Shown piece by piece: positions 7,536 through 64,000 of a stretch of DNA of 64,000 nt (positions within the stretch are counted from its first letter, which is position 1; each line of letters starts with the position of its first letter). The position numbers and the translations under genes were made by a program. The notes beneath the pieces are model-generated. The model ran no database searches, had not been told where the DNA came from, and saw only the letters and a program-made list of their open reading frames with translations. This DNA comes from a virus. The stretch spans positions 103,541 to 167,540 of IMG/VR virus record IMGVR_UViG_3300032242_000488; one strand, given 5' to 3'.

Positions 7536-8630
7536 ATGGCAAAAGCAGAAGTTATCAATCGTCAAGTGAGCCCGAACGGTGCGAAGAACGCTATTCGTAA
7601 GGCATTTAAGAAACAGCGTCCTTTGTTCCTCTGGGGTCCTCCAGGCATTGGTAAGTCTGATGTCATTCATCAGTTAGGCGCAGAAATGGATGCTCACGTT
7701 ATTGACATTCGTTTGAGTCTTTGGGAACCTACCGATATTAAAGGTATTCCTTACTTTGACAGCAACTCAGGTACTATGGTTTGGGGTAGCCCTTCCGAAT
7801 TACCTACGCAAGAGTTTGCATCCAAATTCCCCCACGTTATTTTGTTCTTAGACGAAATGAACTCTGCGGCTCCTAGCGTACAGGCCGCGGCTTATCAGCT
7901 GATTTTGAATCGTCGTGTTGGACAATATAAACTGCCCGATAATGTTTTGATTGTTGCCGCTGGTAACAGAGAAGCAGACAAAGGCGTTACTTATCGTATG
8001 CCTGCTCCGTTGGCTAACCGTTTTGTTCACTTGGAAATGCGTGTGGACTTTGATGACTGGTCACAATGGGCTACCGATAATCGCGTTCACCAGGACGTTG
8101 TAGGCTATGTTACTTTTGCTAAGAAAGACTTGTACGACTTTGATCCAAAGTCTAGCTCACGTGCCTTTGCTACTCCACGTAGCTGGTCTTTTGTTAGCGA
8201 GTTGTTGGAAGATGACGACACTAGCAACGACACATTGACCGATTTGATTGCGGGTGCAGTTGGAGAAGGTTTGGCTATTAAGTTTATGGCTCATCGTAAG
8301 ATTAGCTCTAAATTGCCTAAGCCAGAAGACATCCTTGCAGGCAAGGTTAAGAAAATGGACACCAAAGAAATTAGTGCCATGTACTCTTTGACTGTGTCAT
8401 TGTGCTATGAGCTCAAAGACGCCGCTGACAAGAACGACAAGAAGTTTAACGACAAGGTTAACTACTTCTTCCAGTTCATGATGGATAATTTTGAAACAGA
8501 ATTGGTTGTTATGGGTACCAAACTTGCATTGACACAATATCAATTGCCGTTGGATCCAGATGAGATTGCATGTTTTGATGACTTCCATACTAAGTTTGGC
8601 AAGTACATTGCGGCTGCTCAAACCAAATAA
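7536..8630 (+). CDS. MoxR-like AAA+ ATPase
   Basis: Walker A GPPGIGKS, Walker B LFLDEMN, sensor AAGN, arginine finger PLANRF, TPRSW. Confidence 0.9.
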   Translation: MAKAEVINRQVSPNGAKNAIRKAFKKQRPLFLWGPPGIGKSDVIHQLGAEMDAHVIDIRLSLWEPTDIKGIPYFDSNSGTMVWGSPSELPTQEFASKFPHVILFLDEMNSAAPSVQAAAYQLILNRRVGQYKLPDNVLIVAAGNREADKGVTYRMPAPLANRFVHLEMRVDFDDWSQWATDNRVHQDVVGYVTFAKKDLYDFDPKSSSRAFATPRSWSFVSELLEDDDTSNDTLTDLIAGAVGEGLAIKFMAHRKISSKLPKPEDILAGKVKKMDTKEISAMYSLTVSLCYELKDAADKNDKKFNDKVNYFFQFMMDNFETELVVMGTKLALTQYQLPLDPDEIACFDDFHTKFGKYIAAAQTK

Positions 8631-50227: not shown

Positions 50228-50656
50228 ATGCAATGGACTTATCAGAATACTATAGTTGAAGAACTACCCGAAACCTGCGTGGGTTTTGTGTATCTGATAA
50301 CAAATAACATCACTGGAAGAAAATACATAGGCAAGAAACTTGCAAAGTTTGCGAAAACCACCTACAAAATGGTTAAACTCAAAAACGGAAACAAGAAAAA
50401 GAAAAAGATTAGAAGCAAGATCGATTCGGACTGGCGTGACTATTACGGATCAAGCGATGCACTAACCAAAGACATAGACACACTAGGCAAAGAAAACTTC
50501 TCCAGAGAAATACTATACTATTGCACATCAAAAGCAGAATGCTCATACATCGAGGCCCGAGAACAATTTACACATAAAGTTCTAGAATCAGCAGATTATT
50601 ATAACGGACACATTGCTGTTCGTGTACACGGCTCACATATCTTCAAAAAATCTTAG
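50228..50656 (+). CDS. Minimal GIY-YIG endonuclease (Seg-like catalytic domain only)
   Basis: GFVYLITN..TGRKYIGKK, YYGSS, FSREIL, E and YYN motifs. Confidence 0.85.
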   Translation: MQWTYQNTIVEELPETCVGFVYLITNNITGRKYIGKKLAKFAKTTYKMVKLKNGNKKKKKIRSKIDSDWRDYYGSSDALTKDIDTLGKENFSREILYYCTSKAECSYIEAREQFTHKVLESADYYNGHIAVRVHGSHIFKKS

Positions 50657-50659
50657 GCA

Positions 50660-51120
50660 GTATCAGCGGAAATAGCAAGCGTCAGCTAACATCAGACGCC
50701 CGGACACCTGGATCTCGGATCGCAGGGAGGGAAACATCTCTAGCCGCAGGAGTACTCAGCAACTATCCTTAACAGGACGATGATCGCAAATGCCGCGGTT
50801 TTGCTGTTATAAAAATTAAAGGCAAGAAGGAAGGGAGAAATACCCTACGTTTAAGCATATGTTAGCGTATATACTTAAACCGCCGTTGTGATAAAGACTC
50901 TGCTCGTGGTACCGGACAACCGCCACTGTAACGCAGTAACGCTAGTGTGACATGTTCAACTCAGATAATGTCGTTAGAATCTTTGCCCTGCCTGGGCAAA
51001 GTGTGACTGAACAATCTAGATAATATCTTAAGTGCTTCGCACTAAATCATAAGTACACAATAAGAAAGAAGAAGAATAGTGTGAGCGAAAGCGAAACACA
51101 GATGAACGTAGTTCATCTAC
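50660..51120 (+). ncRNA. Candidate large structured non-coding RNA (family not recognised; strand inferred)
   Basis: About 500 nt with no ORF in the track; 141/300 G+C in 50701-51000; more than 10 helices with G-U pairs and GAAA loops; two potential pseudoknots. Confidence 0.6.
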
Positions 51121-51131
51121 ATGCATCCCGA

Positions 51132-51139
51132 TATAAATA
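51132..51139 (+). promoter_or_regulatory. T4 late promoter (perfect consensus)
   Basis: TATAAATA, 25 nt upstream of the ATG at 51165. Confidence 0.8.
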
Positions 51140-52470: not shown

Positions 52471-53343
52471 TTACGCGAAAAAACTTGCGGCGTCTAGTGT
52501 AATTGGAATCTCAACTATCTTAGGTGCGCCAGCGGCTTGATCTTCTTCGGTAGTTGCTATCTTTTGTACTGGGATTGCAAATTTATTTTTTTGTATTTCT
52601 AAATGATCCATAATAGCTTTGAAGAAATCTTTGTCAGCATTATCAATAAATTCTTTAATAAATTCAGGATCACTAGTTTCGCCGTCAGGCGTTACAATCT
52701 TAACCACGCTGTTAGTAACCATATCAACATTGATGTCGGTTAACTTTTTAAATGCGGCGTTAAACAACTCCATCTTTTTAGTATCTTCCATCTTGTCATC
52801 GTTGACAATGCTAAAAATACGTTGTTCTTCAAGAGTTTTGATGGCAGTTTGCGTAAACTCTTTATAGGTCAACGGTCTTACATAGGCTTTAAGATTATCA
52901 CCAATTTGAATTTCGTTGTCATACGCGGCATTTAATAATGAGTCAAGCACTAGACGTAGGTCTAATTCAAATGATCTTGAATCTTCAATAACTGGAATAG
53001 TTACAGTAATATCTAGTTTTTCACCATAAGTAGCTAGACGAATAGCAATTAAAATTGCATCCATATCTACACTTGGGATAGACCAAGCGTTCTTAATACT
53101 AGGGAAACAACTATGAATAACATCCACAGTTGCTTGTCCGTTCATTAAAGCATCAGGAGTTTTCATTACTAACTCATCCTTTGCTGTCATTGCGTAAACG
53201 GGATATTCTCCGTTTTCAGATTTCTCTAGGGTGCCTGGAGGATAAAAATTGCCACTACTGGGCAACCTAATATAAATCTTGGGCTGTCTAAAGTACTTCT
53301 TTAACGGGTTTAATGTTTGATTTTCCACAGGGTTTAACTCCAA
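52471..53343 (-). CDS. gp26-like baseplate hub / tail assembly chaperone
   Basis: LPS.G.FY, YAMTAKDE, D.DAILIAIRLATYG motifs; ends in SFF. Confidence 0.75.
   Translation of the reverse strand: MELNPVENQTLNPLKKYFRQPKIYIRLPSSGNFYPPGTLEKSENGEYPVYAMTAKDELVMKTPDALMNGQATVDVIHSCFPSIKNAWSIPSVDMDAILIAIRLATYGEKLDITVTIPVIEDSRSFELDLRLVLDSLLNAAYDNEIQIGDNLKAYVRPLTYKEFTQTAIKTLEEQRIFSIVNDDKMEDTKKMELFNAAFKKLTDINVDMVTNSVVKIVTPDGETSDPEFIKEFIDNADKDFFKAIMDHLEIQKNKFAIPVQKIATTEEDQAAGAPKIVEIPITLDAASFFA
52477..52483 (-). other. Programmed -1 ribosomal frameshift site (T TTT TTC)
   Basis: X XXY YYZ heptamer in the correct phase, one codon before the stop; the -1 frame runs into ORF 52247..52435. Confidence 0.75.
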
Positions 53344-62917: not shown

Positions 62918-63000
62918 ATAAATACTTTGTATGATTCGCATGTCGCGAGTTTTATGCGGTAACCCACCGCGTATGGCATAGAACGCCACTTTTCAAGGAG
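62918..63000 (+). promoter_or_regulatory. Late promoter plus a structured 5' leader (candidate cis-regulatory RNA)
   Basis: ATAAATA at 62918-62924; three hairpins and a loop-strand pairing before the AAGGAG SD. Confidence 0.55.
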
Positions 63001-63008
63001 AAAATAAA

Positions 63009-64000
63009 ATGGGACGTCCTTTAAATAAGAAATTTTTTGGTAACCGCAACATAGGTGTTGGCGGTCAAGCCGTTAATCCACTACATAACTCACAAAACGC
63101 AAGCGATGATCGTATCGGCGGCGAAGGTTTTGCAGGAGTTACATTTGGTGCATCAGTAGCTGATACATCATACGGTAGCGGTGCATACAAGTTAAGAATT
63201 CCAGCAATCTCAATAGCACCACCTACTATTCCAGGTGGCGTATCAGCTGTTGCTACTGTAAGTCATGTTAAAGCAGTTCACGCTGTACCTAATAATAAAG
63301 GTACAGGATATCAGATCGACGATATCATTGAAGGTACTACAGGCACAGGAACAAAAGCAAGATTTAAAGTTACAAAATTACGTGTATTATCAGTAACGCT
63401 TGGCAGCTTGCCAGCAAGCGGTAACTTTGACGGTGGTGAAAATCTAGTATGGGATCAATTTGTAAACAATCACTGGACAGAACCTACAATCATTACTAAC
63501 GTGGCTAGTACTGGTACTCCTAACTATGACTTAGCTGGTACATACGGGTCTTTTACAGGTGGTGTATGGGACGGTACTGATGGTAGTCATGCTCCTATAA
63601 CAGCATTGCCAATTACTGGTGGTAATATGACACCTAACCCAACTAACCCAAGCTACAACACTCGTGGTACAGGCGACTTACGTGGTAAAGTTGGCGGCGG
63701 TTCAGTTGACAACAACGGCGCTGGCGGTACAGCAACATTCACATATGGTATTGAAGAAGTAGTCCTTGTAGCAGACTATCAAGGTGATTACACAGCAGTT
63801 GACGCTGCCGCACAAGCAGTTACTAATGTTACAGTTGGTGCTACTGGTGCTAATGCAACTCTTGACATCTACTACGGTGTTAAAACAATTACAGTATCTG
63901 AAAAAGGTTCTGGTTACACTGGTGTAGAACCAGTTACATTTGCATCTACAATTGGTGGCGCATTTGAAACTCGTGCAACTGGTACTATTGTTCTAACAAC
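63009..64000 (+). CDS. Virion structural protein, G/T/V-rich beta type (truncated at window end)
   Basis: MGRPLNKKFFGNRNIG...; appears open to the window end; strong SD; G.GY motifs. Confidence 0.7.
   Translation, partial: MGRPLNKKFFGNRNIGVGGQAVNPLHNSQNASDDRIGGEGFAGVTFGASVADTSYGSGAYKLRIPAISIAPPTIPGGVSAVATVSHVKAVHAVPNNKGTGYQIDDIIEGTTGTGTKARFKVTKLRVLSVTLGSLPASGNFDGGENLVWDQFVNNHWTEPTIITNVASTGTPNYDLAGTYGSFTGGVWDGTDGSHAPITALPITGGNMTPNPTNPSYNTRGTGDLRGKVGGGSVDNNGAGGTATFTYGIEEVVLVADYQGDYTAVDAAAQAVTNVTVGATGANATLDIYYGVKTITVSEKGSGYTGVEPVTFASTIGGAFETRATGTIVLT

What the first reader, a model, noticed from the sequence alone, without database searches (positions are those of the whole stretch)
50228..51120. 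Catalytic-domain-only GIY-YIG nuclease followed directly by an unrecognised ~450-nt pseudoknotted RNA: candidate nuclease-RNA system
Seen: in a gene-dense genome, the only large gap in the window starts right after the GIY-YIG stop codon. It is GC-enriched (141/300 in 50701-51000) and folds densely. Helices: GCGTC/GACGC (50679-83/50695-99); CCTGGATC/GATCgCAGG (50707-26); a GAAA-capped stem (50725-40); a three-way junction CAGCAA/TTGCTG (50757-62/50801-06) enclosing TCCT/AGGA and GATCGC/GCGGTT; AGGG/CCCT (50832-46); a long hairpin GTTTAAG..CTTAAAC (50849-80) whose 8-nt loop GTTAGCGT can pair with ACGCTAGT (50939-46, pseudoknot); CTGC/GCAG enclosing GTGG/CCAC; GACAT/ATGTC whose loop GTTCA can pair with TGAAC (51008-12); and a perfect CTTTGCCC/GGGCAAAG (50981-51001). 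The G-U pairs fit a plus-strand RNA. Established: Seg/I-TevI-type GIY-YIG homing nucleases normally carry a C-terminal DNA-binding module. This 142-aa protein has none, but has a Lys-rich insertion (KMVKLKNGNKKKKKIRSK). Inference: the co-transcribed RNA may be a ribozyme or a scaffold/guide for the nuclease, by analogy to HEARO/omegaRNA with HNH/IscB proteins, or a replication/recombination element next to gp46/47.
Basis: partly seen in the sequence, partly recalled or inferred. Interest (0 to 1): 0.9.

Follow-up and report, generated by a model that had tools for sequence, protein, structure and literature searches.

The report
Full-length Polynucleobacter-1 phage RNA, origin-like
The gene-free gap behind a small nuclease gene of this giant uncultured phage holds a real, doubly knotted RNA whose first third was catalogued in 2010; it is not tied to that nuclease, which relatives swap for other DNA-junction-cutting enzymes, and it most likely marks an RNA-primed start site for DNA copying, which is inferred and not shown.

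Summary
The structure is real but not unrecognised. 50674-50809 is Rfam Polynucleobacter-1 (RF01718, 91.8 bits), and the 2010 paper already placed it behind this gene family and drew a tail pseudoknot. The conserved element is longer (about 50674-51025, plus a tail to 51118). Across 70 homologues 87% of cells pair, and two pseudoknots covary. A 7-nt word occurs twice, identical in 102/102 elements although it takes ten forms.

The nuclease-RNA reading fails. The short GIY-YIG form is the family norm (phrog_447), and eight cultured phages carry it without RF01718. The same RNA follows a RusA-like Holliday-junction resolvase in 15 loci. GIY-YIG, RusA-like and Endo VII genes are mutually exclusive at full length in 17 records, and the GIY-YIG is modelled as a homodimer, so it is probably the resolvase.

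Best guess (about 40%): an R-loop-primed replication origin, with structured RNA, A+T-rich spacer and DNA-type GNA hairpins resembling ColE1. One genome has two elements with different box words, which favours cis base pairing over a protein reader. Strand skew gave no support, and transcription is not shown. The scan reported this element before on other genomes.

The parts
50228..50656 (+). Stand-alone GIY-YIG nuclease, 142 aa (phrog_447, PF19835 SegE_GIY-YIG; homologue of P-SSM2 PSSM2_218); probable homodimeric junction resolvase; neighbour rather than partner of the RNA
   Evidence: invariant Y22, Y33, G35, E109, N126; I-TevI catalytic domain Z 8.8, rmsd 2.5, 82 aligned
50345..50425 (+). 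The 'Lys-rich insertion': residues 40-66, modelled as a long beta-hairpin arm; lies within the span matched by the family profile
   Evidence: strands E40-50 and E56-66, pLDDT above 90; profile positions 9-144 of 148 match residues 2-141
50674..50809 (+). Polynucleobacter-1 RNA motif (Rfam RF01718): 5' domain with three hairpins and a three-way junction
   Evidence: 91.8 bits against gathering score 37, model positions 1-141; covariation
50832..50880 (+). Short hairpin and long hairpin; the loop 50862-68 forms pseudoknot 1 with 50939-45
   Evidence: helices 9-11; a 7-pair tail pseudoknot is also marked in the 2010 alignment
50883..50946 (+). Most conserved core with invariant GGTAC and ACCGCC; pseudoknot 2 (50885-89/50916-20) crosses helices 50906-09/50923-26 and 50900-03/50933-36
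   Evidence: invariant columns; (helices 12-15); shared by the type A and type B 5' domains
50959..50969 (+). Box 1: ACTC followed by a 7-nt word (AGATAAT here)
50981..51001 (+). 8-bp hairpin between the two boxes
   Evidence: 82% paired, length-variable
51014..51024 (+). Box 2: ATCT followed by the same 7-nt word; identical to box 1 in 102/102 elements, ten different words, spacing 47-59 nt
51031..51043 (-). GCGAAGC-type DNA mini-hairpin on the bottom strand; present within 45 nt of box 2 in about half of the elements (52 of about 102)
   Evidence: stability of this motif in ssDNA is from my own knowledge
51044..51079 (.). A+T-rich, purine-rich spacer; mean 72% A+T between box 2 and the tail in 99 elements; candidate unwinding element
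51080..51118 (+). Tail: GAGC-GNNA-GCGA hairpin (51080-51100), then a perfect hairpin with a C(GTA)G triloop (51100-51118). DNA-type loops. Also kept behind element types that are otherwise unalike. May double as a minus-strand terminator
   Evidence: DNA fold z -2.45; similar word downstream of the ColE1 origin region
51132..51139 (+). T4-type late promoter TATAAATA for the next gene (51165); marks the right boundary
   Evidence: function from established T4 biology, not tested

Best explanation
SHOWN. The gap is a full-length member of the Polynucleobacter-1 family: about 350 nt of covarying, doubly pseudoknotted plus-strand RNA, then twin boxes, an A+T-rich spacer and DNA-type hairpins. It occupies a conserved slot behind gp47-gp46 and a resolvase-type gene in uncultured jumbo phages related to PA5oct, Atu_ph07 and GAP32. 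The upstream nuclease is interchangeable.

INFERRED (most likely mechanism). The element is an RNA-primed replication origin working like ColE1 RNA II or the T4 R-loop origins. (1) Read-through or local transcription makes the RNA. (2) Its fold exposes one box, which pairs in cis with the template strand of the other box and so holds a persistent RNA-DNA hybrid; this would explain why the two words are always identical yet free to change. (3) The RNA 3' end, trimmed by phage or host RNase H, primes DNA synthesis. (4) The displaced strand folds the GNA hairpins that load helicase or primase. The GIY-YIG protein is probably the phage's homodimeric Holliday-junction or branch resolvase, linked by position and pathway rather than by binding the RNA.
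For: RNA reality: (86.7% paired against 36-43% for slid controls; 67 of 86 pairs with two-sided changes). Independence from the nuclease: 8 of 74 RNA-first loci lack the gene within 1.5 kb and 6 have a gene inserted; 15 of 28 RusA-like loci carry the RNA directly; 8 cultured phages have the gene without RF01718. Resolvase reading: full-length phrog_447, phrog_244 and phrog_423 never co-occur in 17 records (11, 5 and 1); homodimer model score 0.59 against best control 0.00, contacts agreeing in at least 93%, pLDDT at least 89, with the mark reached by 20 of 30 solved pairs and 1 of 23 single chains. Origin reading: RNA-type loops (GNRA or UUCG, 19 of 21) in the 5' domain against DNA-type loops in the tail (C(GNA)G triloop in 59 of about 102; 21 GNYA loops); a similar GAGCG-N-AGCGA word in ColE1, where an RNase H-processed RNA primer exposes a primosome assembly site (PMC3167613); RNase HI directly upstream of the element in L105 and of a related tail-bearing element in L241-type loci, and beside the syntenic gap in Phosso; no complement of the box word inside the element (3 of 103); box spacing 47-59 nt, not helically phased; two elements in record G006 carry different words, each internally identical; tandem repeats upstream in L154.
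Against: Four-fold-site GC skew does not switch at the element in the 99%-complete G002, nor in G000. No RNase HI (PF00075) was found in G000, G001, G002 or G006, so the host enzyme or direct priming would be needed. The ColE1 likeness is an 11-letter word, and that it lies within ssiA is from my memory. The cultured relatives' syntenic gaps do not match the profile. The RNA is far more elaborate than T4 origin transcripts. The tail hairpin also scores as a minus-strand terminator. G006 could be a chimeric assembly. No replication or transcription experiment exists.
Confidence: 0.4

Rival explanations
1. A stand-alone trans-acting structured RNA (GOLLD/ROOL-like scaffold, protein sponge or ribozyme), released from the gp55-gp47-gp46 transcript. 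The twin boxes form a pseudo-symmetric fold or bind a dimeric protein, and the tail is a terminator or processing signal.
For: Extensive covariation with two pseudoknots and an invariant core; RNA tetraloops; found behind unrelated genes (L171, L107, second G006 copy); terminator-like tail on the minus strand.
Against: Does not explain the DNA-type GNA loops, the bottom-strand mini-hairpin or the A+T spacer, which are kept even when the RNA body differs. Different box words in two elements of one record argue against a single protein reader. PA5oct's four RNA-seq-defined ncRNAs do not lie in the syntenic gap (PMC7318152).
Confidence: 0.33
2. A cis-regulatory mRNA element (3' UTR of the gp47-gp46-resolvase operon, or leader of the next gene) that controls stability, processing or expression; the 2010 paper scored it as possibly cis-regulatory.
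For: Begins within about 20 nt of the upstream stop codon in most loci; no sigma-70 promoter found before it.
Against: Both neighbours vary: GIY-YIG, RusA-like, RNase H, MazG-like or inserted genes upstream, and same-strand or convergent genes downstream. The next gene here has its own late promoter.
Confidence: 0.12
3. One reading: the RNA is a guide or scaffold of the GIY-YIG nuclease, like HEARO/omegaRNA with IscB.
For: Direct adjacency in 67 of 72 gene-first and 60 of 74 RNA-first loci; basic beta-hairpin arm; no C-terminal DNA-binding module.
Against: The same RNA follows an unrelated PD-(D/E)XK resolvase. The protein occurs without the RNA in cultured phages. No hypervariable guide: segment identities are 0.64-0.83 except a 12-nt A/U linker at 0.55. 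No protein column predicts the box word. No sign of mobility: fixed slot, single copy in G000.
Confidence: 0.06
4. The whole element works as single-stranded DNA (origin, or recombination or packaging site), with no functional RNA.
For: DNA-type tail; neighbours are recombination nucleases; no transcript shown.
Against: G-U to A-C cells 272:35, frequent G-U pairs, GNRA and UUCG loops in the 5' domain, and two pseudoknots.
Confidence: 0.09

Closest known systems
Polynucleobacter-1 RNA motif (Rfam RF01718; Weinberg et al. 2010, PMC2864571)
   Same: Full-length model match at 91.8 bits. The paper already notes location downstream of GOS11034/PSSM2_218-like genes and a 3' half that is not always detected; its alignment has a tail subfamily with a 7-pair pseudoknot.
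   Different: Rfam covers only 136 of about 350-445 nt. The twin boxes, the DNA-type tail, the alternative 5' domain (type B), the jumbo-phage context and the resolvase swap were not seen in the parts of the 2010 supplement that I read. No function is assigned.
ColE1 RNA II primer with ssiA/pas, and T4 R-loop origins (oriF, oriG)
   Same: Long structured RNA followed by a GAGCG-N-AGCGA-type hairpin on the same strand; RNase H link in some relatives.
   Different: No sequence homology of the RNA and no plasmid hit. No antisense RNA I seen. Twin 7-nt boxes instead of a G-tract. No skew evidence. Function untested.
HEARO/omegaRNA-IscB and TnpB RNA-guided nucleases
   Same: A structured RNA of a few hundred nucleotides next to a nuclease gene.
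   Different: RNA lies downstream; the nuclease is GIY-YIG and replaceable; no guide segment, no IS ends, no mobility.
Phage junction resolvases (T4 Endo VII gp49, RusA-like phrog_244) and small GIY-YIG nucleases (T4 Endo II, Slx1)
   Same: The GIY-YIG occupies the same slot beside gp46 and is mutually exclusive with them; predicted homodimer.
   Different: Best fold match is the I-TevI catalytic domain (Z 8.8); Endo II scores 5.5 and Slx1 only 3.2. Junction cleavage is not shown.
GOLLD and ROOL large ornate RNAs
   Same: Large pseudoknotted RNAs carried by phages.
   Different: No Rfam match; shorter; not beside the tRNA cluster, which lies at 4-14 kb in this contig.

Membership tests
Polynucleobacter-1 (RF01718) | Covariance-model score above the gathering threshold over the full model | tested here: met
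   91.8 bits against 37, positions 1-141
Polynucleobacter-1 (RF01718) | Downstream of a GOS11034/PSSM2_218-like gene | tested here: met
   tblastn hit falls on PSSM2_218; paper text
RNA-guided nuclease system (OMEGA-like) | Obligate pairing of one nuclease family with the RNA | tested here: not met
   RNA behind a RusA-like gene in 15 loci; protein without RF01718 in 8 cultured genomes
RNA-guided nuclease system (OMEGA-like) | Variable guide segment abutting a conserved scaffold | tested here: not met
   No segment of guide length is hypervariable among 73 close pairs
RNA-guided nuclease system (OMEGA-like) | RNP formation and RNA-dependent cleavage | not testable with these tools
   Needs biochemistry
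ColE1-type / R-loop-primed origin | Structured RNA upstream of an A+T-rich tract and ssDNA hairpin loading site on the same strand | tested here: met
   Anatomy only:
ColE1-type / R-loop-primed origin | Replication-linked strand asymmetry switching at the site | tested here: inconclusive
   No switch in G002 or G000; codon bias dominates, and T4-like replication is largely recombination-driven
ColE1-type / R-loop-primed origin | RNase H available for primer processing | tested here: inconclusive
   Adjacent in L105, L241-type loci and Phosso; none found in G000, G001, G002 or G006
ColE1-type / R-loop-primed origin | Persistent RNA-DNA hybrid and RNA-to-DNA junction | not testable with these tools
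   Needs R-loop and nascent-strand mapping
Seg-type free-standing homing endonuclease | C-terminal DNA-binding module and sporadic distribution | tested here: not met
   Homologues are 138-159 aa; present in 504 phage records; one full-length copy per genome
Phage Holliday-junction resolvase | Replaces other resolvase families; homodimer | tested here: met
   Mutual exclusivity in 17 chosen records, some partial; homodimer model 0.59 against control 0.00. Both are indirect.
Phage Holliday-junction resolvase | Symmetric cleavage of four-way junctions | not testable with these tools
   Needs an assay
Retron or telomerase-like RT template RNA | A reverse transcriptase in the same genome | tested here: not met
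   PF00078 found in none of five records, including the 99%-complete G002; controls rang

The most novel reading that the evidence does not exclude
A clade-wide jumbo-phage replication origin in which a doubly pseudoknotted primer RNA anchors itself to its own template through a pair of freely drifting but always identical 7-nt boxes: a self-addressing R-loop origin. It would give Polynucleobacter-1 a function. Alongside it, the widespread phrog_447 family, mislabelled 'NAD synthetase', would be a GIY-YIG Holliday-junction resolvase, including in T4-like cyanophages.
Probability: 0.3. Interest if true: 0.8.

Novelty: new variant of a known kind. Interest (0 to 1): 0.5.

Why it matters
I found no paper describing replication origins of this jumbo-phage group (one literature search), and Polynucleobacter-1 has had no assigned function since 2010. 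The full-length model, the twin-box rule (a direct swap-and-rescue test) and the DNA-type tail make both questions testable. The resolvase-slot swap offers a testable function for a core gene family found in about 500 phage records and widely misannotated. The headline claim of a new RNA-guided GIY-YIG nuclease is unlikely.

Tried and rejected
Rfam at E up to 10 on the 3' two thirds: only chance-level hits. Methylobacterium-1 scored 16 bits (E 3.8) at 50789-50887; the resemblance is suggestive but unproven, and divergent element types did not reach its gathering score.

blastn of the element against cultured phages and of its 3' part against plasmids: nothing. Nucleotide profiles on the syntenic gaps of PA5oct, Phosso, GAP32 and Atu_ph07: no match.

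Metatranscriptome runs: only small-share holders kept as contigs. Contigs of relatives cover parts of the gene and the element, but they cannot show strand, ends or level, so expression is not shown.

Genome contigs pattern scan: six true elements, all on MAG contigs of unrelated taxa and mostly short, probably binned phage DNA with no host information; one chance hit.

PF02945 search was uninformative, as it missed its positive control; redone with phrog_423. Foldseek against PDB gave nothing at E up to 0.001; the PDB sequence search gave nothing significant.

Strand-skew test for an origin: no signal. Search for a complement of the box word inside the RNA: 3 of 103. Protein columns predicting the box word: none. 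Reverse transcriptase: none.

Literature searches found one paper naming the motif and none on a GIY-YIG-RNA system or on origins in this group. I did not build a calibrated full-length covariance model or run R-scape, so phylogenetic relatedness is controlled only by the slid-structure control.

Full report
SETTING. The window is the end of a 167.5-kb viral contig (G000, estimated 46% complete, 37 tRNAs). Its gp46 is closest to those of the jumbo phages Phosso, PA5oct and Atu_ph07 (46-49% identity) and GAP32 (36%). Gene order is late sigma factor, gp47, gp46, a small ORF, GIY-YIG (50228-50656), a 508-nt gap, a 361-aa gene, then the convergent baseplate-hub operon.

OBSERVATION. The gap and its GC content are as described. 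It is not unrecognised: 50674-50809 matches Rfam Polynucleobacter-1 at 91.8 bits. Weinberg et al. 2010 (PMC2864571) wrote that most members lie downstream of genes possibly homologous to PSSM2_218 and that the 3' half is not always detected. PSSM2_218 is this protein's homologue, and their alignment marks a tail pseudoknot. The single sequence does not fold better than shuffles (z -0.85), so the case rests on comparison. In 70 homologues, 86.7% of cells of the named structure pair, against 36-43% for slid controls, and 67 of 86 pairs show two-sided changes. A second, missed pseudoknot 50885-89/50916-20 also holds (98%). The GAAA stem and the 50954-58/51008-12 pseudoknot do not (60% and 58%). 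G-U cells outnumber A-C cells 272 to 35, which fixes the plus strand.

TWIN BOXES. Mutual information flags positions 50963/51018, 50967/51022 and 50969/51024 as 100% identical rather than complementary. A 7-nt word after ACTC and after ATCT is identical in 102 of 102 de-replicated elements, takes ten forms (22 matches expected if independent; relatedness not corrected; where several ACTC sites existed the best match was taken), and is spaced 47-59 nt. Its complement is absent from the element (3 of 103). It changes between phages whose GIY-YIG proteins are 85-95% identical, and no protein column predicts it. The same words occur behind RusA-like genes. Record G006 holds two elements with different words, each internally identical. 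This points to base pairing in cis (RNA with template DNA, or strand slippage) rather than a trans-acting reader. That step is inference.

TAIL. After box 2 come a bottom-strand GCGAAGC-type mini-hairpin (about half of the elements), a spacer of 72% A+T, a GAGC-GNNA-GCGA hairpin, and a perfect hairpin closed by a C(GNA)G triloop in 59 of about 102 elements. Many of these loops are GNYA or triloops, typical of single-stranded DNA (own knowledge), whereas a 5'-domain loop is GNRA or UUCG in 19 of 21 cases. The tail persists behind element types whose bodies differ (L241-type, L263, L265, L051). A similar word lies in ColE1, where an RNase H-processed RNA primer exposes a primosome assembly site (PMC3167613); that this word is part of that site is from memory.

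THE NUCLEASE. It is phrog_447/PF19835. The short form is the family norm: 504 phage records, 496 covering at least 80% of the query. Eight cultured phages inspected have no large downstream gap and no RF01718 match in their genomes. The model is confident (pLDDT 91); the basic 'insertion' is a long beta-hairpin, and the best fold match is the I-TevI catalytic domain (Z 8.8). Gene-first, 67 of 72 loci have the RNA directly behind, 3 have it about 1 kb further on, and 2 lack the core motif. RNA-first, 60 of 74 are adjacent, 6 have an inserted gene, and 8 have no GIY-YIG nearby. In several of the last, a RusA-like resolvase holds the slot. Searching from that resolvase, 15 of 28 loci carry the same RNA directly, 9 carry a tail-bearing variant about 1.1 kb on (RNase HI in between where read, L241), and none has a GIY-YIG; these loci are partly redundant. 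Cultured relatives have a RusA-like or Endo VII gene beside gp46, followed by a 0.8-1.5-kb gene-poor gap. Across 17 records the three families never co-occur at full length: 11 GIY-YIG, 5 RusA-like, 1 Endo VII, with partial hits in three records. The sample was chosen, not random, and four records are incomplete. The protein is modelled as a homodimer (0.59 against control 0.00). I read it as the phage's junction resolvase; this is not shown.

MECHANISM. The most likely reading (0.40) is an RNA-primed origin: transcript fold, cis hybrid through the boxes, 3' end as primer, displaced-strand hairpins loading helicase or primase, next to the recombination genes that take over replication later. 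Against it: no skew switch, no phage RNase HI in four records, and no transcript data. Rivals are a stand-alone RNA (0.33), a cis-regulatory element (0.12), a pure ssDNA element (0.09) and an RNA-guided GIY-YIG (0.06).

NOVELTY. This is an extension of a catalogued motif of unknown function; the gene link and one pseudoknot were noted in 2010. This scan has reported the element on several other genomes, one with the origin reading. I had reached the direct-repeat and origin ideas before that look-up (notes) and borrow only the name 'twin-box'. Not in the summaries of the earlier notes that I saw: the three-way resolvase exclusivity with a homodimer model, and two different box words in one genome. 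Interest 0.5.

Noticed in passing
window 62934-63011 (+): Rfam freshwater-2 RNA (RF02980, 71.8 bits against gathering score 49.9). This accounts for the leader structure noted in e1-5699032.
   Followed up: partly
window 52471-52485 (-), end of the gp26-like baseplate hub gene: An in-frame T TTT TTN slippery heptamer lies within the last 30 nt of 117 of 118 homologous genes, and the same run is visible in PA5oct and Atu_ph07. This supports the programmed -1 frameshift proposed in e1-5699031, although the conserved Phe-Phe ending constrains the codons.
   Followed up: partly
L268:1220-1700 (G006:C1 about 165.7-166.2 kb): A second, divergent element in G006 (RF01718 35.5 bits, below cut-off) with twin GCATGAA boxes and a tail, far from gp46 and with no recognised nuclease beside it.
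   Followed up: partly
L154:9863-9983; L107 upstream of the element: Tandem 38-nt repeats (3.1 copies) rich in TAGGCAC just upstream of the element. An AGGC word lies near the GIY-YIG stop in 61 of 80 loci; possibly a transcription-start or iteron-like motif.
   Followed up: partly
L085, element at 8517: The segment holding box 1 and the hairpin is missing, leaving only box 2: a natural deletion or an assembly collapse.
   Followed up: no
L009, L052, L096, L127, L259 (type B); L263, L265; L241, L051: At least three further element architectures fill the same slot. Type B shares the core and boxes but has a different 5' domain. None of those scanned reaches an Rfam gathering score.
   Followed up: partly
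L209:7017-8531, L211:7410-8425, L212:6651-7456: Gene-poor, hairpin-rich gaps beside the resolvase gene in cultured PA5oct, Phosso and GAP32: experimentally reachable candidates for the equivalent element.
   Followed up: partly
PHROG annotation of phrog_447: Labelled 'NAD synthetase' in PHROGs and many GenBank records although it is a GIY-YIG fold.
   Followed up: yes
NC_009379.1 2130672-2131206 (from the 2010 supplement): The copy in the Polynucleobacter QLW-P1DMWA-1 chromosome also shows twin AGCGAAA boxes. Why a phage element sits there is unexplained.
   Followed up: no
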